Notes under the pieces: generated by a model
The model's database searches: none
Seen by the model: the letters and a program-made list of their open reading frames with translations, nothing else
What the model was told of the DNA's origin: nothing
Shown here: positions 1 through 9,660 of the stretch, piece by piece
How the letters are laid out: the number at the start of each line of letters is the position of its first letter
How positions within the stretch are numbered: position 1 is the stretch's first letter
Position numbers and translations under genes: made by a program
DNA from: a virus
Lineage: Duplodnaviria > Heunggongvirae > Uroviricota > Caudoviricetes
Direction: 5' to 3' (one strand)
DNA length: 9,660 nt
IMG/VR virus record: IMGVR_UViG_2636415712_000005
Location: 1-9,660 of that record

Positions 1-1169
<1,169 letters not shown>

Positions 1170-1205
1170 TGGAGCACCTGTGTTGTTCTGAGGTGAGCAT
1201 ATCAC

Positions 1206-1241
1206 CTCTGTTCAGGTGGCCAAATTCAGTGTGCCACTTCA
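1206..1241. repeat. IS911 terminal inverted repeat (orfA-proximal end)
   Basis: The IS-outward end at 1241 reads TGAAGTGGCACACTGAATTTGGCCACCTGAACAGAG on the minus strand. It shares the TGAAGTGG...TGGCCACC pattern with the opposite end. Confidence 0.7.
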
Positions 1242-2108
1242 CCTGGCTGGGATTTTGTGTCTGATGCAGAGCGACTGATGTTCTCCCGTGAGCTAAACCG
1301 CGACATGGGCATCAGTTACTTCCTGAACCCTGACGATTACCGCAAAGCAGGCCGCAACCTGGTAGATGGTGACATCTTCGGGCGCGTTCCTGAAGAAGCA
1401 TATCGAAACGGTACTATTCAGCGTCAGATTGCTGGCTTTGATGAAATTCTTCGCTCACCGAAACTTCCGGCAGTTACCAAGTCAACCGCGACTGGTGTAA
1501 CTGTTTCTGGTGCGCAGAAGTTTAAGCCGCAGGCATACACCCTTGATACCGATGGTAACAAAGAGAACGTCGACAACCGTGTTGCAACGGTGACCGTATC
1601 CTCCACCACCGGATTTAAGCGCGGCGACAAAATCAGCTTCATTGGTGTGAAGTTCCTGTCTCAGATGGCGAAGAATGTGCTGACTGATGACGCGACTTTC
1701 TCAATCACCCGTGTGATCGATGGTACTCACATCGAAATCACGCCGAAGCCGATTGCGCTGGATGACGCGTCACTGACAAAAGAAGAGAAGGCTTACGCTA
1801 ACGTAAACACCTCTCTTGCTGATACCACTCCGGTAAACGTTCTGAACGTGGCAACAACCACCGCTAACGTGTTCTGGGCTGATGACTCAATCCGCCTGCT
1901 GTCTCAGCCGATCCCGGTAACCCATGAACTGTTTGCTGGCATGAAAACGTCTTCCTTCAGCATTCCAGGTATTGGTGTTAACGGCATCTTCGCAACGCAG
2001 GGTGATATCAACACTCTGTCTGGTAAGTGCCGTATTGCTGTGTGGTATTCAGCATGTGCTGTACGACCAGAGGCAATTGGTGTTGGTCTGCCTAACCAGA
2101 CCGCGTGA
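1242..2108 (+). pseudogene. 3' fragment (about 288 codons) of a P22-type major capsid (coat, gene 5) gene, interrupted by the IS911 insertion
   Basis: The reading frame is open from the first base after the IS911 end (translation ...[27 protein letters not shown]...) to TGA at 2106-2108. The sequence strongly resembles the C-terminal two-thirds of P22 coat protein as I recall it ([38 protein letters not shown], ending ...GVGLP-QTA). The N-terminal ~140 codons must lie beyond the IS, outside the window. Confidence 0.85.
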
Positions 2109-2116
2109 TAACCAGA

Positions 2117-2138
2117 GGGAGCTTCGGCTCCCGTTTTT
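2117..2138 (+). terminator. Intrinsic terminator-like hairpin 10 nt downstream of the coat stop
   Basis: GGGAGC (2117-2122), TTCG loop (2123-2126), GCTCCC (2127-2132): a perfect 6-bp GC-rich stem with a UUCG tetraloop, followed by G then TTTTT (2134-2138). Confidence 0.6.
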
Positions 2139-2152
2139 ATCTGGAGACAAGC

Positions 2153-2377
2153 ATGACACACATGATCTTTCGTCATGGCGACATGAAGAAGTGGAAAGGC
2201 GTTGGCTACGACTTTGAAATCGTGAAAGCCGAAGAGCTTCAGGAATATCTGGATGCTGGCTGGTTTTCACATCCTGATGACCTTTTGAAGGATGTTGCAG
2301 AGCCAGAAGAAAAACAGTGTAAAAAGCCTGGTCGAAAACCTAAGGCGGCAGCAGATGAACCTGACAACGAAGGGTGA
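2153..2377 (+). CDS. Small hypothetical protein (74 aa) between coat and gp4; occupies the position of the small ORF found here in P22-like phages
   Basis: ATG at 2153 preceded by GGAGA (2143-2147) with 5-nt spacing. Product [74 protein letters not shown]. Its 3' end overlaps the gp4 start by 23 nt. No family recognised; coding status rests on the RBS and the compact operon context. Confidence 0.5.
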
Positions 2378-2855
2378 TTTAGTTCTTGCGGCATTACGTA
2401 AGCTCGGTGTTGCATCAAATGCCACGTTAACCGATGTCGAACCGCAGTCTATGGAAGACGGCGTCAACGACCTTGAAATGATGATGGCTGAATGGCTTGG
2501 CGGTGATGCGTCACCTGGTATCAACGTTGGCTACATTTTTGCTGATGCAGATGTTGCTCCGGATCCGGGCGATGAGCACGGTTTATCAAATAACGCTATC
2601 AATGCCGTCATTTTCAACCTTGCCTGCCGAATTGCTCCAGATTATGCGCTGGAAGCGTCTGCAAAACTTATAACCACTGCCAGATACGGGAAAGAGCGAC
2701 TCGTCAAACTGTCTGCAATGGACAGGGCAAAAGCAGCTAAATGTAAGTCCGGTTATCCAAACCGTATGCCTGTTGGTAGTGGTAACCAGTTGGCGAAGTG
2801 GAATGGTTGGAATTACTTCCACCGAAAGGAACCTTGCGATAACGGGAGCGAATAA
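2355..2855 (+). CDS. P22 gp4-like tail accessory / packaged-DNA stabilisation protein (166 aa)
   Basis: Start [33 protein letters not shown]... chosen over the track's upstream start (2292) because it follows an AAGGCGG Shine-Dalgarno and gives 166 aa, the length of P22 gp4. Motifs remembered from gp4 are present ([40 protein letters not shown]). Stop TAA overlaps the next ATG (TAATG). Confidence 0.8.
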
Positions 2856-4273
2856 TGCCTATTCAGCAACTTCCGCTTATGAAAGGTGTCGGCAAAGACT
2901 TCCGAAACGCCGACTATATCGACTATCTGCCAGTGAATATGCTGGCTACACCCAAAGAAATCCTGAACAGCAGCGGATATCTTCGCTCATTCCCGGGCAT
3001 TGCCAAACGTTCTGACGTGAACGGTGTATCTCGCGGCGTCGAGTACAACATGGCGCAGAATGCTGTTTATCGCGTGTGTGGCGGCAAGCTGTACAAAGGA
3101 GAAAGTGAAGTCGGTGATGTTGCCGGAAGTGGTCGTGTATCAATGGCGCATGGTCGGACATCACAGGCGGTAGGCGTTAATGGTCAACTGGTCGAGTATC
3201 GCTATGATGGCACGGTCAAAACCGTCTCAAACTGGCCTACAGACAGTGGATTCACTCAGTATGAGTTAGGTTCAGTTCGCGACATTACGCGCTTACGTGG
3301 GCGTTATGCGTGGTCAAAAGACGGAACTGATTCATGGTTTATCACTGACCTTGAAGACGAATCTCATCCTGACCGTTACAGCGCACAATATCGTGCCGAG
3401 TCTCAGCCTGACGGCATCATCGGTATCGGGACATGGCGAGACTTCATCGTCTGCTTTGGTTCATCGACTATTGAATATTTCTCCCTGACTGGCGCAACCA
3501 CCGTTGGTGCCGCTTTGTATGTTGCACAACCATCGCTGATGGTGCAGAAAGGCATTGCCGGAACTTACTGCAAAACGCCATTCGCTGATTCGTATGCGTT
3601 TATCAGCAATCCGGCAACGGGTGCGCCGTCTGTGTATATCATCGACTCCGGTCAGGTGTCACCAATTGCCAGCGCGAGCATTGAGAAAATCCTCCGCTCC
3701 TACACTGCTGATGAACTGGCTGATGGTGTGATGGAATCGCTGCGATTTGATGCTCATGAGTTGCTGATTATCCACCTTCCGCGTCACGTCCTCGTGTACG
3801 ACGCATCTTCAAGCGCCAATGGCCCACAATGGTGTGTGCTGAAAACAGGTCTGTATGACGATGTGTACCGCGCTATCGACTTCGTTTACGAAGGCAATCA
3901 GATAACGTGCGGCGATAAGCTGGAATCTGTTACCGGGAAACTGCAATTCGATATCAGCAGCCAGTACGACAAGCAACAGGAACACCTGCTGTTTACTCCA
4001 CTCTTCAAAGCGGATAACGCCAGAGTGTTCGACCTTGAGGTTGAATCGTCAACTGGCGTTGCGCAGTACGCCGACCGCCTTTTTCTCTCTGCAACCACTG
4101 ACTGCATCAATTACGGGCGTGAGCAGATGATTGAGCAGAATGAACCGTTCGTTTACGACAAGCGTGTTTTGTGGAAGCGAGTAGGGCGCATCAGGAAAAA
4201 TGTCGGCTTCAAATTGCGCGTTATCACGAAGTCACCTGTCACTCTGTCTGGCGCTCAGATAAGGATTGAGTAA
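2855..4273 (+). CDS. P22 gp10-like tail accessory / packaged-DNA stabilisation protein (472 aa)
   Basis: Synteny directly after gp4 and a length of 472 aa, identical to P22 gp10. Start overlaps the gp4 stop (TAATG at 2853-2857); stop overlaps the next start (TAATG at 4271-4275). Confidence 0.85.
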
Positions 4274-5070
4274 TGGCTGATTCGAATCTCAATGTGCCGG
4301 TAATCATCCAAGCTACGCGGCTCGATACATCAGTCCTTCCACGCAATATCTTCTCGCAGTCGTATCTGCTTTACGTTATCGCACAGGGCACTGATGTTGG
4401 TAACGTGGCTAACAAAGCCAACGAGGCCGGACAGGGCGCTTATGATGCACAGGTCAGGAACGATGAGCAGGATGTGATTCTCGCTGACCATGAGCAGCGA
4501 ATTTCTGCTGCGGAAGCAACGCTTGTTAATCATGAGGAGCGAATCAGACAGGCAGAATCAACTCTTCAGGACCATGAAACACGAATAGCTCAGAATGAAA
4601 GCGATATTTCGTCGCTTGACACAAGAGTTCAGTCGCTGGAGTCGCAGGTTTCAGACCATGAAACGCGCATCGATGCTCTGGAGTATGCAACCACACGCAA
4701 GAAGTCAGAGGTTGTTTACTCTGGTGTATCTGTAACCATCCCGACAGCGCCGACCAACCTTGTTAGCCTGCTGAAAACGCTCACACCGTCATCCGGCTCG
4801 TTGGCACCATTCTTCGACACCGTTAACAACAAGATGGTTGTGTTCAACGAGAACAAAACCCTGCTCTTCAAGTTGTCGATTGTCGGCACGTGGCCCAGCG
4901 GAACCGCCAACAGGTCAATGCAGCTAACCTTTTCCGGCTCTGTTCCTGACACACTGGTCAGCAGTCGTAATGCGGCGACAACAACCGACAACATCCTGTT
5001 AGCTACGTTCTTCAGCGTGGATAAAGACGGCTTTCTTGCCACAACCATCAAGATAATCGCGGAGCAGTGA
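4273..5070 (+). CDS. Tail needle (P22 gp26-like N-terminus, trimeric coiled-coil shaft, divergent C-terminal distal domain), 265 aa
   Basis: N-terminus [43 protein letters not shown]... resembles the conserved gp26 N-terminal portal/gp10-plug domain as I recall it. Residues ~60-137 are a heptad-periodic segment with four D/N-H-E-x-R-I motifs spaced by 14 or 28 residues. Residues ~140-265 are beta-rich and not coiled-coil, unlike the all-helical P22 gp26. Confidence 0.85.
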
Positions 5071-5525
5071 TGATTACATTCAAACCAACGCGAAACATCG
5101 ACCTGATAGAAGCAGTCGGAAATCACCCTGACATTATCGCCGGGAGCAACAACGGTGATGGATACGACTACAAACCTGAATGCCGTTACTTTGAGGTGAA
5201 CGTGCACGGTCAGTTTGGCGGCATTGTTTACTATCAGGAGATTCAGCCGCTGACATTAGATTGCCACGCCATGTACCTGCCAGAGATTCGCGGCTTCAGC
5301 AAGGAAATTGGGCTGGCGTTCTGGCGATACATTCTGACTAACACCACCGTTCAGTGCGTAACATCGTTCGCTGCACGCAAATTCCGACACGGTCAGATGT
5401 ACTGCGCAATGATTGGCCTTAAGCGTGTAGGAACCATCAAGAAATACTTCAAAGGCGTGGATGACGTGACTTTTTACAGCGCCACACGCGAAGAACTAAT
5501 CGACTTCCTGAATCACGGGAGATAG
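5070..5525 (+). CDS. Gene-14-position protein (P22 gp14-like by synteny; virion assembly / ejection-associated), 151 aa
   Basis: ATG at 5070 overlaps the tail-needle stop (TGATG); the track uses a GTG one codon upstream (5067). Assignment is by position between the tail needle and the gp7-like gene; I do not recall the gp14 sequence well enough to confirm by similarity. Confidence 0.55.
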   Translation: MITFKPTRNIDLIEAVGNHPDIIAGSNNGDGYDYKPECRYFEVNVHGQFGGIVYYQEIQPLTLDCHAMYLPEIRGFSKEIGLAFWRYILTNTTVQCVTSFAARKFRHGQMYCAMIGLKRVGTIKKYFKGVDDVTFYSATREELIDFLNHGR

Positions 5526-5527
5526 CC

Positions 5528-6136
5528 ATGTTATATGCATTTAAGCTGGGCAGAAAACTGTGCGGCGAGGAACCTTATTGCCCTGAAAAAGGCGGGAAAG
5601 GTGGCAGTTCTGATAAAAGCGCAAAGTATGCAGCAGAAGCCCAGAAGTATGCTGCAGACCTGCAAAATCAGCAGTGGCAGACGATCATGAAAAACCTTGC
5701 TCCGTTCACGCCTCTTGCGGAGCAGTATGTTAACCAGCTTCAGAACCTTTCCAGTTTAGAAGGTCAGGGGCAGGCACTTAATCAGTATTACAACTCTAAG
5801 CAGTATAAAGACCTTGCAGGGCAGGCGCGTTACCAGAGTCTTGCTGCTGCGGAGGCGACGGGTGGACTTGGTTCGACAGCCACAAGCAATCAACTGGCTA
5901 CGATCGCGCCGACACTCGGTCAGTCTTGGTTATCAAATCAGATGAGCAATTACAACAATCTGGCAAACGTTGGGCTTGGTGCGCTGCAAGGTCAGGCAAA
6001 CGCCGGGCAGACGTACGCCAACAACATGAGCAGCATTGCACAGCAAAGCGCAGCTCTTGCCAGCCTTTTGGGAACATCAACGCCTTGGGGCGCTGGTATT
6101 GGTGCTGGTATCGGATTGCTTGGCTCGTTGTTTTAA
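5528..6136 (+). CDS. P22 gp7-like ejection (internal virion) protein, 202 aa
   Basis: N-terminus MLYAFKLGRKLCGEEPYCPEKGGKGGSS resembles the gp7 leader region as I recall it. GGGAG Shine-Dalgarno at 5516-5520. Gly/Ala/Gln-rich with a C-terminal glycine-zipper-like hydrophobic tail (WGAGIGAGIGLLGSLF). Correct synteny. Confidence 0.75.
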   Translation: MLYAFKLGRKLCGEEPYCPEKGGKGGSSDKSAKYAAEAQKYAADLQNQQWQTIMKNLAPFTPLAEQYVNQLQNLSSLEGQGQALNQYYNSKQYKDLAGQARYQSLAAAEATGGLGSTATSNQLATIAPTLGQSWLSNQMSNYNNLANVGLGALQGQANAGQTYANNMSSIAQQSAALASLLGTSTPWGAGIGAGIGLLGSLF

Positions 6137-6145
6137 GGGGTAATC

Positions 6146-7477
6146 ATGGCTACTTGGCAAGGAACAAACGGCGGATTGTTGGCTGGTATCGGCGGCGTCA
6201 ACTCAAACGCTCCGAGCGTAAATGACATCGGCAATACGCTTCAGCTTATCAGGCAGAACAATGATATTGAGCGTTCAGGCGCTAACAATGTTGGGCTGAC
6301 TGCTTTGCAAGGTCTTTCAGGTATTGCGGGTGTTTTTCAGCAGGAAAAGCAGGCTCAGCGGCAGAAAGAATTTCAGCAGGCGTACGCTAATGCTTATGCG
6401 TCTGGTGATCGCGGTGCTTTGCGTCAGTTGGCTACTCAATATCCAGACCAGATTGAATCCGTTCGTAAAGGCATGGGATTCATTGATGAAGAGCAGCGTA
6501 ATTCTATCGGCACCTTAGCGGCTGGCGCACGCCTTGCGTCATCGTCTCCAGAAGCAATGCAATCATGGCTGCAAAACAACGCCGGTGAGTTAGCTCGTGT
6601 TGGCGTTAATCCTCATGACGTCGCTCAGATGTACCAACAGAACCCGCGGCAGTTCGGCGAATTTGTCGATCACCTGGGGATGAACAGTCTCGGGCCCGAA
6701 AAATACTTTGACCTACAGGATAAAATGCAGGGTCGCCAGGTTACCATGCGCGGTCAGGATCTGGATTCGCAAACCGCCGCTCGGAATCAGGCAATCACAA
6801 TGCGCGGACAAGATATCCAGGCGAATTTAGGTCAGCAGCGCATTAATCTGGACGCAGAAACAAACCGCATTAACAACGAAAATAAGCGCCTTGACCGGAT
6901 GCTATCAGCAGAAACTAACGACCTGAAGCGCCAGGAAATACAGAGCCGCATAGCAGCCAACAACCAGCAGTTGCAGCAGAAGCAGCAAGCGCTAAATGAT
7001 GGCTACAAAGACGGCATCAACACCCTCACAACCAGCATGTTCACTCTGAACGATATCGTTAGTTCTCCTTCACTTAAGAGCATTACAGGCTTACGTGGAG
7101 TAATCCCCAACGTTCCAGGCTCACAGGCTGCAGACACTCAGGCACGACTTGATACCTTTAAATCACAAGCATACCTGACAGCGGTTCAGGCCATGCGAGG
7201 CATGGGCGCACTTTCTGATGCCGAGGGCAAAAAGCTCGACCAGGCTGTTGGTTCGCTGCAGAACTCGCAGAGCGAGGAGTCCTTTCGTCGCAACGCTGGC
7301 GTCATCCTGAACACGCTCAACCAGAAGCGTAATGAGGCGGTTGGTAAGTACGTTCAGCAAAACGGTATCAAGCGAGTGGAAGCGCCTCAGGCTTCTATAG
7401 ATTACCTGAAGCAGCACCCCGAGCTGTCAATCGACTTCATTAATCGCTACGGATATCTTCCATCTTTGGGGCAGTAA
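6146..7477 (+). CDS. P22 gp20-like ejection (internal virion) protein, 443 aa
   Basis: Synteny after gp7, with AAGGGG Shine-Dalgarno at 6135-6140. Gly-rich N-terminus and a long Q/N-rich predicted coiled-coil (RINNENKRLDRMLSAETNDLKRQEIQSRIAANNQQLQQKQQALN). Stop TAA is immediately followed by the next ATG (TAAATG). Confidence 0.7.
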   Translation: MATWQGTNGGLLAGIGGVNSNAPSVNDIGNTLQLIRQNNDIERSGANNVGLTALQGLSGIAGVFQQEKQAQRQKEFQQAYANAYASGDRGALRQLATQYPDQIESVRKGMGFIDEEQRNSIGTLAAGARLASSSPEAMQSWLQNNAGELARVGVNPHDVAQMYQQNPRQFGEFVDHLGMNSLGPEKYFDLQDKMQGRQVTMRGQDLDSQTAARNQAITMRGQDIQANLGQQRINLDAETNRINNENKRLDRMLSAETNDLKRQEIQSRIAANNQQLQQKQQALNDGYKDGINTLTTSMFTLNDIVSSPSLKSITGLRGVIPNVPGSQAADTQARLDTFKSQAYLTAVQAMRGMGALSDAEGKKLDQAVGSLQNSQSEESFRRNAGVILNTLNQKRNEAVGKYVQQNGIKRVEAPQASIDYLKQHPELSIDFINRYGYLPSLGQ

Positions 7478-9208
7478 ATGGCTAATTACCGTGATTTGTT
7501 AGAGCAGGCTGGCGCACGTTACGGTGTGCCAGAAGGGTTGATGACTGCACTGGGTGCCAAGGAGTCTTCTTACAACCCTGCCGCAGTAAGCTCCGCCGGG
7601 GCTGTAGGATTGACTCAGGTCATGCCTGGGACATGGCGTGATATGGGTTATACCGATGAGCAAATGCAAAACCCCGAATATCAGGCTGACGCTGGCGCGC
7701 GCTATCTGGCAAAGATGTACCAGCAGTTTGGTAACTGGCGTGACGCTCTTCAGGCTTATCACGACGGTCCCGGCAACGTTATGAAGGCAAAGCGTGGTGA
7801 ATATACGCCAGGACCTGAAGGCCGCGGTTACGTTGATGATCGCTTTGCTCAATGGGCTGGTGACCCGGTGACAGACTCAACAGTCGAACAGCGCGCCACC
7901 TCTGCAAAGGTACATCCTCAGCAAGACCCTAACAACCCGTTTGCACAACTGGAAGTACAGTCATCCGAACAAGTATCGGCATCAGGTGTGCAGTCAGACC
8001 CAAATAATCCATTTGCTCAGATTGAGCAGCAGGCAGCCAGTCAGCAGCCACCTCAACCCGTAAGTTCTGTCGCACCGAAACCTGTTCAGCAACAAACAGT
8101 TAATCAGGCCAATAATGCACCAACACGGGAAGAACCATCATTGATGCAACAAGCTGGCGATTGGCTCACTGGTGGTCAAAGTGCAGGGCAAATTGCAGAA
8201 CAGGCTGGTCGTGGTCTGGTAAACATACCATTTGACGTATTGCAGGGTGGCGCAAGTCTGATTAATGCAATCAGTCAGGGGCTTGGGGGGCCAAAAGTAT
8301 TGGATGATGTTTATCGTCCAGTAGACAGACCGACAGACCCCTACGCGCAAGCTGGAGAGTCAATAGGCGGTTATCTTGTTCCTGGAGCAGGTGTAGCTGG
8401 AAACATGGTCATTGGTTCTCTCGCTGACGCGGCGAATCAACGGGGTGATTTTGCCGAAAATGCCGCTATTAATGCCGGACTTAGCATTGCTACGCATGGC
8501 CTGATAAATGGCGTTACCCGTGGTGTTCGTGGTGCATCAAATATAATTAGTGGCAATAAAACATCTGCACAGAGAGCGACCACTGCGCCAACAGAAACAT
8601 CACCATTCTCCGGTGATGCCGCTGCAGCAACAAATCCTGCGGTTCATGCCGCAGAGGCAAGAGTAGCACAAGGTGTACCAATGACGCCTGCGACGAAGAA
8701 CCCAGAGGAAGTCGTTCGCACAGTAGCAGCACAAAAAAGGCCAAATCTCGCTTCATCGCTTGATGAACTAGATATCAATCCTCAGGCTGAAGTTCTGGAG
8801 TCTGCTGAAAGGCTTAATGTTGATTCATTACTCCCTTCACACTTTTCCGGGAACGAGCAATACAAGGCAGTTGAGCAAGCAATCAAGTCCCGTGCGGGTT
8901 CTGCTCTACAGGTGCAGGAAAATGAAGCAATCAGGCAGCTAGCACAGGGCGCGGGTGAGATAATTGATCGCGTTTCCGGTGCAAAAGATGCTCTTGGTAT
9001 GAGCGACAAGTTTATTGATACGGTCAATGGAAGAATGTCTGCGCTGATGAAACGAAGCGACCAGCTTTATCGCAATGTTGAAAAGGCGATGCCTGCAGGT
9101 GCAAAAATTGATGCGCCATCAACAAGGTCAATGCTCAAACAGGTGGCAGAAGATCTTGGCGGGATGAAAAACCTTGACCCTATTGAAAAGAGAGTTGAGG
9201 TAGCCTGA
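7478..9208 (+). CDS. Gene-16-position ejection protein with N-terminal lytic transglycosylase (SLT) domain, 576 aa
   Basis: Residues ~20-125 carry family-1 SLT hallmarks: catalytic Glu in GAKESSYNP (codon at 7562-7564), [14 protein letters not shown], and [13 protein letters not shown]-rich linker follows with two tandem DPNNPFAQ(L/I)E repeats (7925-7960 and 7997-8032), then a ~380-aa C-terminal region. Position corresponds to P22 gene 16. Confidence 0.8.
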
Positions 9209-9220
9209 GTTTAACGGACA

Positions 9221-9253
9221 CTCCTTCCTGAAATAGAATGGCATCAGAAGGAG
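9221..9253 (+). promoter_or_regulatory. Inverted repeat able to sequester the Shine-Dalgarno of the downstream (IS-truncated) gene
   Basis: CTCCTTC (9221-9227) is the exact reverse complement of GAAGGAG (9247-9253), which is the Shine-Dalgarno of the ATG at 9260. A 7-bp stem with a 19-nt loop. Confidence 0.3.
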
Positions 9254-9259
9254 CTAATA

Positions 9260-9279
9260 ATGAGCAGAAAAACCCAACG
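9260..9279 (+). pseudogene. 5' stub of an unknown gene (MSRKTQR...) truncated by the IS629 insertion
   Basis: Strong Shine-Dalgarno AAGGAG (9248-9253), 6-nt spacer, ATG at 9260. The frame runs straight into the IS629 terminal repeat after 7 codons. Confidence 0.4.
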
Positions 9280-9305
9280 TGAACCGCCCCGGGAATCCTG
9301 GAGAC
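9280..9305. repeat. IS629 left terminal inverted repeat
   Basis: Begins with the IS3-family terminal TG(A) at 9280. The exact inner boundary cannot be set without the partner repeat, which lies outside the window. Confidence 0.55.
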
Positions 9306-9333
9306 TAAACTTCCTGAGAAAGAGGTAAACAGG

Positions 9334-9660
9334 ATGACTAAAAATACTCGTTTTTCCCCCGAAGTCCGTCAACGGGCAGTCCGTATGGTTCTGGAAAGTC
9401 AGGGCGAATATGACTCACAATGGGCGACAATTTGTTCCATTGCCCCAAAGATTGGCTGTACGCCGGAGACTCTGCGTGTCTGGGTTCGCCAGCATGAGCG
9501 GGATACCGGGGGCGGTGATGGAGGGCTCACCACCGCTGAACGTCAGCGTCTGAAAGAGCTGGAGCGTGAAAATCGTGAACTGCGCCGCAGTAACGATATC
9601 CTTCGCCAGGCTTCCGCTTATTTTGCGAAGGCGGAGTTCGACCGCCTCTGGAAAAAATGA
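9334..9660 (+). CDS. IS629 OrfA (helix-turn-helix transposase N-terminal subunit, 108 aa)
   Basis: [108 protein letters not shown], with stop TGA at 9658-9660 exactly at the window end. An A-rich tract (GGAAAAAATGA) at the orfA terminus is where orfB would overlap. Confidence 0.9.

What the first reader, a model, noticed from the sequence alone, without database searches (positions are those of the whole stretch)
1242..9279. Tail and ejection gene string is intact despite the dead coat gene and IS on both flanks
Between the two IS elements there are about 7.1 kb of uninterrupted, translationally coupled ORFs (gp4, gp10, tail needle, gp14-position, gp7-, gp20-, gp16-like) with no frameshifts or premature stops. 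P22 lengths are preserved exactly for gp4 (166 aa) and gp10 (472 aa). Either the IS insertions are very recent, or this module is being maintained, for example as a source of virion parts or for recombination with incoming P22-like phages. Two different IS3-family elements bounding the block also make it a candidate for IS-mediated deletion or inversion.
Basis: inference. Interest (0 to 1): 0.5.

Follow-up and report, generated by a model that had tools for sequence, protein, structure and literature searches.

The report
IS-eroded P22-like prophage relic in Shigella
This is an ordinary decaying remnant of an Sf101-like (P22-type) prophage in Shigella flexneri: its tail and ejection genes look open only because the relic is young, three of them are in fact damaged, and related strains show it being deleted piece by piece by insertion sequences.

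Summary
The gene string is real: IS911 ends at 1241, IS629 starts at 9279, and coupled P22-type late genes lie between them. "Intact" is only partly true.

- **Full length (4 genes plus a small ORF):** gp4 (166 aa), gp10 (472), gp14 (151), gp20 (443) and the small ORF orfX.
- **gp16-like ORF:**
- **Needle:** a derived 51-nt in-frame deletion in its knob.
- **gp7:** a derived 84-nt in-frame deletion.
- **Absent:** portal, scaffold, terminase and tailspike.

The window is identical to S. flexneri contig AMJY01000028.1. Other S. flexneri genomes carry the same gp16::IS600::IS629 junction, including NCTC1 from 1915. Their left ends are nested, at portal, coat, the end of gp10 or the needle, and at least one is a one-sided deletion next to IS911.

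Copies differ by about 0.05%. Within the relic there are 14 nonsynonymous (one nonsense) and 3 synonymous changes (ω about 1.4), plus a coat frameshift in one strain lineage. Against functional relatives ω is 0.06-0.08.

Open frames are therefore the neutral expectation (P about 0.85). I found no evidence that the block is maintained.

The parts
1..1241 (-). IS911 (IS3 family). orfB is at 1-840 and orfA at 867-1205. The IRL end abuts the phage DNA at 1241. The window starts 8 nt inside the element.
   Evidence: Pfam rve and HTH_Tnp_1. 100% identical to copies annotated 'IS3-like element IS911 family transposase' and 'IS911 ORF1/ORF2'. The terminal sequence was read.
1242..2108 (+). 3' fragment of the P22-type coat gene (codons 144-431 of 431), truncated by IS911.
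   Evidence: Pfam P22_CoatProtein profile positions 148-422 of 423. Aligns to NCTC1 copy L007 from position 3624. 280/283 aa identical to the APC_JM3.2 coat.
2117..2132 (+). Terminator-like GC hairpin followed by a T-run, just after the coat stop codon.
   Evidence: Consensus scan only. Any function is inferred.
2153..2377 (+). Small conserved late-operon ORF (orfX, 74 aa). Its length varies among copies with the copy number of a CAGAGC hexamer.
   Evidence: phrog_1175. 6-nt in-frame difference from L007. Lengths of 74-88 aa in related loci.
2355..2855 (+). gp4 tail accessory / head-tail adaptor, 166 aa, full length.
   Evidence: Pfam P22_Tail-4. 165/166 aa identical to APC_JM3.2.
2855..4273 (+). 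gp10 tail hub / DNA stabilisation protein, 472 aa, full length.
   Evidence: Pfam Phage_stabilise profile 1-469 of 469. 467/472 aa identical to APC_JM3.2.
4273..5070 (+). Tail needle (gp26 homologue) with an Sf6-type knob, 265 aa. It carries a derived 51-nt in-frame deletion at the TGCCACAA repeat (5037-5044).
   Evidence: The knob profile matches only 1-152 of 175, against 1-175 in L007. The junction was read. Alignment to the Sf6 knob structure 3RWN shows the residues between chain positions about 137 and 152 missing. E. coli matches all span an extra 51 nt.
5070..5525 (+). gp14-position protein (DUF2824), 151 aa, full length.
   Evidence: Pfam DUF2824 and phrog_651. 150/151 aa identical to APC_JM3.2.
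5528..6136 (+). gp7 ejection protein, 202 aa. It carries a derived 84-nt in-frame deletion at the TCTTGCC repeat (6055-6061), which removes residues 177-204 of 230, plus the substitution R12C.
   Evidence: Pfam P22_gp7 profile 1-179 of 230, against 1-230 in L007. Junction read. Five-way alignment. E. coli matches all span an extra 84 nt.
6146..7477 (+). gp20 ejection protein, 443 aa, full length.
   Evidence: Pfam Inj_translocase and phrog_2534 profile 1-435 of 435. 442/443 aa identical to APC_JM3.2.
7478..9208 (+). N-terminal 573 codons of a 911-aa ejection protein that carries an SLT transglycosylase domain (gp16 position). The last 3 codons and the stop are IS600 sequence.
   Evidence: 567/573 aa identical to Sf101_0013 residues 1-573 of 911. 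911-aa ORFs are present in APC_JM3.2, Sf101 and E. coli F1005.
9196..9278 (+). Left-end stub of IS600 (83 nt, including the orfA start ATGAGCAGAAAAACCCAACG), interrupted by IS629.
   Evidence: 100% identical to IS600 ends in plasmids annotated 'IS600 family transposase' and in pCP301. In L001 the rest of IS600 follows IS629 with a 3-bp ACG duplication.
9279..9660 (+). Left part of IS629 (IRL and orfA), running off the end of the window.
   Evidence: 99.5% identical to the pCP301 region annotated 'IS629 ORF1'. Pfam HTH_Tnp_1 in related loci.

Best explanation
The block is the middle of a defective, IS-scrambled P22-like (Lederbergvirus) prophage of Shigella flexneri. The prophage is related to the oacB-carrying serotype-converting phage Sf101. 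It lies next to psiF-phoA.

**Order of events (steps 1 and 3-5 read directly from sequence comparisons; step 2 partly; their order largely inferred)**
1. IS600 landed in, or deleted from, gene 16 at codon 573. In the fullest copy, its other side abuts the C-terminal part of the tailspike gene followed by oacB.
2. IS629 inserted into IS600 with a 3-bp ACG duplication. In most lineages, DNA to the right of IS629 was later lost or moved, so IS629 now abuts psiF.
3. IS911 entered the head-gene region. Deletions and rearrangements at its IRL end then removed progressively more of the late operon in different lineages.
4. In the window's lineage, slippage between 7-8-nt direct repeats removed 51 nt from the needle knob and then 84 nt from gp7.
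5. The last step, seen only in this assembly, moved the IS911 junction from coat position 3336 to 3624.

**Function (inferred)**
- The genes have no function for the host and cannot build a particle. Portal, scaffold, terminase, full coat and tailspike are missing. The needle, gp7 and gp16 are damaged.
- They are probably not transcribed as an operon. The late promoter and antiterminator are gone. No promoter-like site precedes the block. A terminator-like hairpin follows the coat fragment.
- The frames are open simply because the copies differ by about 0.05%, which is too little time for point mutations to close them.
For: - **Source.** The window is identical to AMJY01000028.1 nt 11-9670. 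The gp16/IS600 junction is found in a genome titled Shigella flexneri. It is also in NCTC1 (LM651928), G1663 and FDAARGOS_535.
- **Gene lesions.**
- **Deletion alleles are derived.** L017 has the needle deletion but an intact gp7. The long forms are in Sf101 (gp7), APC_JM3.2 (gp7), F1005 and NCTC1.
- **Nested left ends.** IS911 abuts the phage DNA at 280, 3336, 3624, 6644 and 7058 of the NCTC1 reference, and contigs L024/L025 end at about 1651. The IS911 left flank is the same in L003 and the L005 group.
- **IS629 history.** The 3-bp duplication, and IS600 abutting the tailspike C-terminal part and oacB in L001, are.
- **Neutral pattern.** 14 N: 3 S plus portal W157* and a coat frameshift. Against functional relatives ω is 0.06-0.08.
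- **Open frames are expected.** P(no nonsense) is 0.85 for 4 SNPs.
- **Transcription signals.** No upstream promoter-like site, and a hairpin at 2117-2132.
- **Literature.** oacB lies in a 'transposon-like structure upstream of adrA', and disruption of an Sf101-like prophage by IS elements has already been proposed (PMC4159516).
Against: - All three indels on the window's lineage (6, 51 and 84 nt) are multiples of three. For random lengths that has a chance of 1/27. The 6-nt change is hexamer-repeat slippage, which leaves 1/9 for the other two. This is a weak hint that frameshifts may be disfavoured.
- Very recent bacterial polymorphism has a raised dN/dS even in useful genes, so ω of about 1 from 17 changes cannot exclude mild constraint (ω = 0.5 gives p = 0.07).
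- Transcription was not measured.
- Most loci were retrieved through the exact 576-aa or 265-aa products, so the sample is biased towards copies that retain these genes.
- The exact mechanism of each deletion (IS911 transposition versus recombination between IS copies) is inferred. The left flank of IS911 in the window's own genome is not available.
Confidence: 0.88

Rival explanations
1. The block is kept by selection as a functional module. It might supply virion parts to helper or incoming phages, or act as a domesticated structure.
For: - Four genes (gp4, gp10, gp14, gp20) are full length and 98.9-99.8% identical in protein to those of plaque-forming phages.
- All indels on this lineage are in frame.
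- The 576-aa and 265-aa products occur in hundreds of assemblies (573 and 635 index blocks).
Against: - Strains G1663 (L004), L002 and L006 have lost gp4 and gp10. L003 has lost everything up to the middle of the needle gene.
- Within-relic ω is about 1.4, against 0.06-0.08 for functional relatives.
- The needle knob, gp7 and gp16 are damaged.
- No tailspike, portal or late promoter is present.
- Wide occurrence is explained by clonal inheritance in a young species.
Confidence: 0.04
2. The relic persists as a recombination reservoir. Its main biological effect would be homologous exchange with infecting P22-like phages (marker rescue or mosaicism), without being selected in the host.
For: - L009 and L010 share the IS600 junction and have identical flanks, but they carry a patch of about 2.8 kb (gp10 to gp7) with 2-3% divergence. 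A segment was therefore exchanged with another P22-like genome.
- Sf101, isolated from S. flexneri, shares 98-99% identical gp7, gp20 and gp16 proteins with the relic, while its coat and gp4 are of another type.
Against: - Exchange is a by-product of homology, not evidence that the block is maintained.
- dS between Sf101 and the relic is 0.03-0.05, so no recent transfer from the relic to that phage is seen.
- The direction and frequency of exchange are unknown.
Confidence: 0.06
3. The truncated or deleted products (gp16 1-573 with its SLT domain, the knob-damaged needle, the short gp7, the coat fragment) are expressed. They would interfere with superinfecting P22-like phages as dominant-negative subunits.
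For: There is no direct evidence. The frames are open and the SLT domain is complete. All indels are in frame.
Against: - There is no promoter-like site, and a terminator-like hairpin lies upstream.
- The relic is freely lost in other lineages.
- Substitutions follow a neutral pattern.
Confidence: 0.02

Closest known systems
Shigella phage Sf101 (oacB-carrying serotype-converting Lederbergvirus; KJ832078; PMC4159516)
   Same: - The gene order gp10-needle-gp14-gp7-gp20-gp16(SLT) is the same.
- gp10, gp14, gp7, gp20 and gp16 residues 1-573 are 98-99% identical in protein.
- In the fullest relic copy (L001), the IS600::IS629 is followed by a tailspike C-terminal part and oacB that are 91% identical to Sf101.
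   Different: - Sf101 is a complete, inducible phage integrated at sbcB.
- The relic has a different coat, gp4 and needle type. These are APC_JM3.2-like for coat and gp4, with an Sf6-like knob.
- It lies next to psiF.
- It lacks the left and right arms of the phage and carries three IS elements and two internal deletions.
Escherichia phage APC_JM3.2 and the E. coli F1005 prophage (closest complete relatives of the whole string)
   Same: 96.9% nucleotide identity over the coat fragment to gp16 codon 573, with the same gene order and couplings.
   Different: Both have the full coat (431 aa), a 230/231-aa gp7, a 911-aa gp16 and a tailspike, and no IS elements. F1005 has the long 282-aa knob needle, whereas APC_JM3.2 has a different 233-aa needle.
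[quoted passage not shown] 2014, as cited in PMC4159516 and PMC4206707)
   Same: - The chromosomal neighbourhood is the same (psiF is the gene next to adrA in E. coli K-12; this is from my own knowledge).
- oacB is flanked by IS elements in loci L001, L003 and L016.
   Different: That description concerns oacB and its IS flanks, and I could not read the original paper. The window holds the structural-gene part of the same scrambled prophage and not oacB itself.
IS-eroded cryptic prophages of Shigella and E. coli in general
   Same: Truncated genes at IS borders, missing essential modules, strain-to-strain nested deletions and neutral substitution patterns.
   Different: Nothing essential differs. 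This is a well-resolved example because the 1915 isolate NCTC1 preserves a longer ancestral state.

Membership tests
P22-like (Lederbergvirus) late-operon virion module | Colinear order coat - small ORF - gp4 - gp10 - needle - gp14 - gp7 - gp20 - gp16, with family-specific domains. | tested here: met
   Pfam and PHROG hits for every ORF. Synteny with APC_JM3.2, Sf101 and E. coli F1005.
Intact (functional) tail and ejection module | Every gene is full length relative to plaque-forming relatives. | tested here: not met
   gp4, gp10, gp14 and gp20 are full length. The needle lacks 17 aa, gp7 lacks 28 aa and gp16 lacks 338 aa.
Intact (functional) tail and ejection module | Tailspike and portal are present, so that a tail can be assembled. 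| tested here: not met
   Neither gene is in the window. In the source contig the right flank is IS629 then psiF-phoA. In other copies only a C-terminal tailspike fragment survives.
Defective or cryptic prophage remnant eroded by insertion sequences | Phage genes are truncated exactly at IS termini. | tested here: met
   Coat is cut at the IS911 IRL (1241/1242). gp16 is cut at the IS600 IRL (about 9196). IS600 is cut by IS629 (9279).
Defective or cryptic prophage remnant eroded by insertion sequences | The extent of the remnant varies among related strains (nested deletions). | tested here: met
   IS911-abutted left ends at 280, 3336, 3624, 6644 and 7058 of the NCTC1 reference, contig ends at about 1651 (L024/L025), and an IS-less oacB-flank fusion at 3627 in L023 (BLAST match from 3615). 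The IS911 left flank is shared by L003 and the L005 group.
Defective or cryptic prophage remnant eroded by insertion sequences | Relaxed selection compared with functional relatives. | tested here: met
   14 N: 3 S, one nonsense and one frameshift within the relic. ω is 0.06-0.08 against phages. The number of changes is small, so mild constraint is not excluded.
IS3 family elements IS911, IS629 and IS600 | Near-identity to named reference copies, including the terminal inverted repeat and orfA/orfB. | tested here: met
   IS911 100%. IS629 99.5% and IS600 100% to the annotated pCP301 copies. HTH_Tnp_1 and rve domains.
IS3 family elements IS911, IS629 and IS600 | A 3-bp target duplication flanks a simple insertion. 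| tested here: inconclusive
   Met for IS629 within IS600 in L001 (ACG on both sides). Not testable in the window, because the far ends of IS911 and IS629 lie outside it. In related loci the flanks are unrelated, which indicates deletion or rearrangement.
Domesticated phage-derived machine (tailocin, GTA or satellite-like) | A complete particle gene set, its own regulation and conservation under purifying selection. | tested here: not met
   Essential genes are missing, there is no promoter-like site, the block is lost in several lineages and ω is about 1.

The most novel reading that the evidence does not exclude
The surviving open frames (gp4, gp10, gp14, gp20, the SLT-bearing gp16 stub, the shortened needle and gp7) are expressed at a low level. 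They would matter during superinfection in one of two ways: as donors in recombination or complementation that reshape incoming Sf6- or Sf101-type phages, or as defective subunits that poison their assembly. The all-in-frame indels would then reflect selection against frameshifts. The mosaic patch in L009/L010 shows that exchange with other P22-like genomes does occur.
Probability: 0.05. Interest if true: 0.5.

Novelty: already known. Interest (0 to 1): 0.12.

Why it matters
It matters little beyond housekeeping.

- **A caution for sequence readers.** 'No frameshift or stop' is not the same as intact. Comparison with full-length homologues exposed a 338-aa truncation hidden by an IS-supplied stop codon, and two in-frame deletions.
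- **A dated example of relic erosion.** The locus shows how IS911, IS600 and IS629 erode a prophage in a young pathogen. The 1915 isolate NCTC1 preserves a longer state than modern serotype 2a strains.
- **A link to O-antigen modification.** It ties the structural-gene relic to the Sf101-like origin of the oacB O-acetylation locus.
- **A database artefact.** The truncated 576-aa product appears to have entered reference protein sets: a PHROG profile is 576 positions long, and an intact 911-aa E. coli ORF is annotated as incomplete.

Tried and rejected
- **Source genome.** A search of 5,426 complete E. coli genomes for the whole window found no copy with both IS flanks (best 82% coverage). The source turned out to be Shigella.
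- **Exact look-up of the coat fragment.** The 283-aa GTG-start product found nothing. The 276-aa ATG-start product found the source contig.
- **Plasmid accessions.** I tried to name organisms through neighbouring plasmid accessions CP026872, CP037997 and CP007038. None is held. Names came from papers instead.
- **The oacB paper.** The original paper (PMC3993362) is not held, so I relied on how two later papers cite it.
- **Solved structures for gp7.** None was found, so the structural effect of its deletion is not assessed.
- **Non-coding features.** An Rfam scan of the window found nothing. A tandem-repeat scan of orfX found nothing, because only one hexamer copy remains here.
- **Gene-call differences.** The calls 'gp14 107 aa' (L008) and 'gp20 432 aa' (L020) are not mutations. 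L008 is identical to the window, and L020 has no variant there.
- **Alignment-edge artefacts.** I removed apparent SNPs at HSP edges next to deletion or IS junctions (7470-7475, 8577, 3620-3626, 283 and 7060 in L007 coordinates). Position 289 was first set aside for the same reason and later accepted, because L028 carries it away from any junction.
- **Origin of the 51- and 84-nt differences.** I considered that they were imported alleles rather than deletions. I rejected this because the flanks are identical, short direct repeats sit at both junctions, an intermediate exists (L017), and the short forms are absent from E. coli prophages.


Full report
**1. What is in the window**

ORF listing and profile searches give the following layout.
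- IS911 runs to 1241 on the minus strand, with orfB at 1-840 and orfA at 867-1205.
- A 3' fragment of a P22-type coat gene lies at 1257-2108 and matches Pfam profile positions 148-422 of 423.
- A small ORF (orfX) lies at 2153-2377.
- The tail and ejection genes follow:
  - gp4 2355-2855 (166 aa)
  - gp10 2855-4273 (472 aa)
  - needle with an Sf6-type knob 4273-5070 (265 aa)
  - gp14-position DUF2824 protein 5070-5525 (151 aa)
  - gp7 5528-6136 (202 aa)
  - gp20 6146-7477 (443 aa)
  - SLT-domain protein in the gp16 position 7478-9208 (576 aa)
- IS629 starts at 9279.

The IS names rest on two comparisons. The left element is 100% identical to copies annotated as IS911. The right element is 99.5% identical to the pCP301 region annotated 'IS629 ORF1'. 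The coordinates, the gene identities and the coupling are therefore confirmed.

**2. Where 'intact' fails**

Comparison with full-length homologues shows three lesions that cannot be seen as frameshifts.

(a) *gp16-like ORF.*
- The 576-aa ORF matches residues 1-573 of the 911-aa Sf101 protein at 567/573 identity and then stops.
- APC_JM3.2, Sf101 and an E. coli prophage all have 911-aa ORFs.
- The sequence from about 9196 to 9278 is the left end of IS600. It is 100% identical to annotated IS600 ends and includes the orfA start.
- IS600 therefore supplies the last three codons and the stop codon, and IS629 interrupts IS600.

(b) *Needle.*
- It lacks 51 nt between two TGCCACAA repeats (window 5037-5044).
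- The Pfam knob profile is matched only to position 152 of 175, against 175 of 175 in the long form.
- Alignment to the Sf6 knob crystal-structure sequence 3RWN shows the residues between chain positions about 137 and 152 missing.

(c) *gp7.*
- It lacks 84 nt between TCTTGCC repeats (6055-6061).
- This removes residues 177-204 of 230, which are present in all four comparators.

Both deletions are derived.
- The long forms occur in the NCTC1 copy of the same relic and in E. coli F1005. Sf101 and APC_JM3.2 have the long gp7.
- L017 carries the needle deletion with an intact gp7, so it is an intermediate.
- In 5,426 complete E. coli genomes, the best matches to the junction regions all span the extra 51 or 84 nt.

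Only gp4, gp10, gp14, gp20 and orfX are full length. Portal, scaffold, terminase and tailspike are absent from the window.

**3. Source and relatives**

- No complete E. coli genome holds the window with its IS flanks.
- An exact-product look-up found the 576-aa protein in 573 index blocks. Most are contigs of 5-10 kb, as expected for a segment bounded by IS elements in short-read assemblies.
- The window is 100% identical to AMJY01000028.1 nt 11-9670. This particular IS911/coat junction was found only in that assembly.
- The gp16/IS600 junction occurs in a genome titled Shigella flexneri SFBU1023.
- Papers identify LM651928 as S. flexneri 2a NCTC1 (isolated 1915), CP007037 as G1663 (serotype 2a2) and CP034060 as FDAARGOS_535 (serotype 1b).
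- In most of these genomes the right flank is IS629 followed by psiF-phoA-iraP-ddlA.

**4. History of the locus**

*Right side.* In L001, IS629 sits inside a complete IS600 with a 3-bp ACG duplication. The far side of IS600 abuts the C-terminal part of a tailspike gene followed by oacB, and both are 91% identical to Sf101. The ancestor was therefore an Sf101-like oacB prophage. About 2.5 kb, comprising the 3' part of gene 16, a small gene and the 5' part of the tailspike gene, was lost at IS600. In NCTC1 and in the window's type, IS629 abuts psiF directly, so the DNA to the right of IS629 was lost or moved.

*Left side.* Coordinates are those of the NCTC1 copy (L007).

| Position | Locus | State |
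|---|---|---|
| none in the held 10 kb | NCTC1 (L007) | terminase, portal, scaffold and full coat retained |
| 280 | L001 | IS911 IRL abuts |
| about 1651 | L024, L025 | contig ends |
| 3336 | L005, L008, L016, L021 (L018 3 nt upstream) | IS911 IRL abuts |
| 3624 | window, L019 | IS911 IRL abuts |
| 6644 | L002, L004, L006 | IS911 IRL abuts |
| 7058 | L003 | IS911 IRL abuts |

- L003 and the L005 group share an identical 60-nt IS911 left flank but differ in their right junction. That is the signature of a one-sided deletion growing from the IS end.
- L002 and L004 share a right junction but have different left flanks, which indicates rearrangement through IS copies.
- L020 has IS911 inverted at the coat site.

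This fits the published view that oacB lies in a 'transposon-like structure upstream of adrA', and that an Sf101-like prophage was broken up by IS elements.

**5. Is the block maintained?**

*Divergence.* Copies of the relic are nearly identical. About 4 SNPs separate the window from NCTC1 over 8 kb. Only 4.0% of possible substitutions in these ORFs create a stop, so the chance of seeing no nonsense mutation is 0.85. Open frames are the null expectation.

*Substitution pattern.* After removing alignment-edge artefacts, the changes seen among relic copies are 14 nonsynonymous (including portal W157*) and 3 synonymous. There is also a 1-nt deletion in an A6 run of the coat gene, seen in L028 and L029 (possibly the same strain).
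- With 8,890 nonsynonymous and 2,663 synonymous sites, ω is about 1.4. Values of ω ≤ 0.2 are rejected at p < 0.001.
- Within orfX to gp16 alone the count is 8 to 1. This rejects ω = 0.1 at p about 1e-4, using approximate site counts.
- As a control, the same genes compared with APC_JM3.2, Sf101 and F1005 give pooled ω of 0.06-0.08.

*Loss.* Several lineages have lost gp4 and gp10, or more.

*Transcription signals.* No promoter-like site precedes the block, and a terminator-like hairpin follows the coat stop codon. In P22-type phages the late operon depends on an upstream promoter and antiterminator. That is established knowledge, not tested here.

*Caveats.*
- The counts are small, and ω = 0.5 is not excluded.
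- Recent polymorphism inflates dN/dS.
- The three indels on this lineage are all in frame. This is 1/9 after discounting the hexamer slippage.
- Most loci were retrieved through products of the block itself.

**6. Verdict**

This is an ordinary, young, IS-eroded relic of an Sf101-like prophage. The 'maintained' idea is not. The kind of object is already known and interest is low. The most novel reading not excluded is a role during superinfection, through recombination or interference. It rests only on the mosaic patch in L009/L010 and on the in-frame indels, and I give it about 5%.

Noticed in passing
L013 14378-17113 (E. coli F1005) and window 7478-9208: The E. coli ORF is an intact 911 aa, but RefSeq annotates it as 'incomplete; missing C-terminus', ending exactly at codon 573. 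PHROG phrog_21143 has a profile length of 576, the same as the IS600-truncated Shigella product. The truncated form seems to have become a reference sequence in protein databases.
   Followed up: partly
L009 and L010, L007 coordinates about 5500-8300 (window about 3100-5900): These relic copies share the IS600 junction and have flanks identical to the other copies. They carry a patch of about 2.8 kb (gp10 to gp7) with 76-111 differences. This indicates homologous exchange with another P22-like genome after the relic was truncated.
   Followed up: partly
L023 2069-2120 (Logan SRR8281107); window 1242-1248: In this strain the upstream flank of oacB is fused directly to the coat fragment 3 nt inside the window's IS911 junction, through a GGCT microhomology, and there is no IS911. 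It may be an IS911 loss with flanking deletion derived from the window-type arrangement.
   Followed up: partly
L028 and L029 (L007 coordinate 3519); L001 and L028 (L007 coordinate 575): Other copies of the relic carry a coat frameshift (A6 to A5) and a portal nonsense mutation W157*. Point-mutational decay of the head genes is therefore under way.
   Followed up: yes
window 2153-2377 (orfX), around 2298: The small ORF between coat and gp4 varies from 74 to 88 aa among copies and phages, through the copy number of a CAGAGC hexamer (Glu-Pro repeat). The window has the minimum of one copy.
   Followed up: partly
window 2117-2132: A GC-rich hairpin with a T-run lies directly after the coat stop codon. 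It is probably the intra-operon terminator or attenuator that the phage antiterminator normally reads through. That is an inference.
   Followed up: no
L018 1251 versus L005 3476; L020 2041-3284: The IS911/coat junction differs by 3 nt between L018 (…CCA|TGGATG retained) and the L005 group. In L020, IS911 lies at the same site in the opposite orientation. This suggests an original insertion with a CCA duplication, followed by inversions and recombination between IS911 copies.
   Followed up: no
L014 (CP178302.1, titled Escherichia coli ECMA0423, 4.44 Mb): A genome labelled E. coli carries the same gp16/IS600 junction as S. flexneri. Its small size suggests a Shigella or EIEC-like organism filed under E. 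coli.
   Followed up: no
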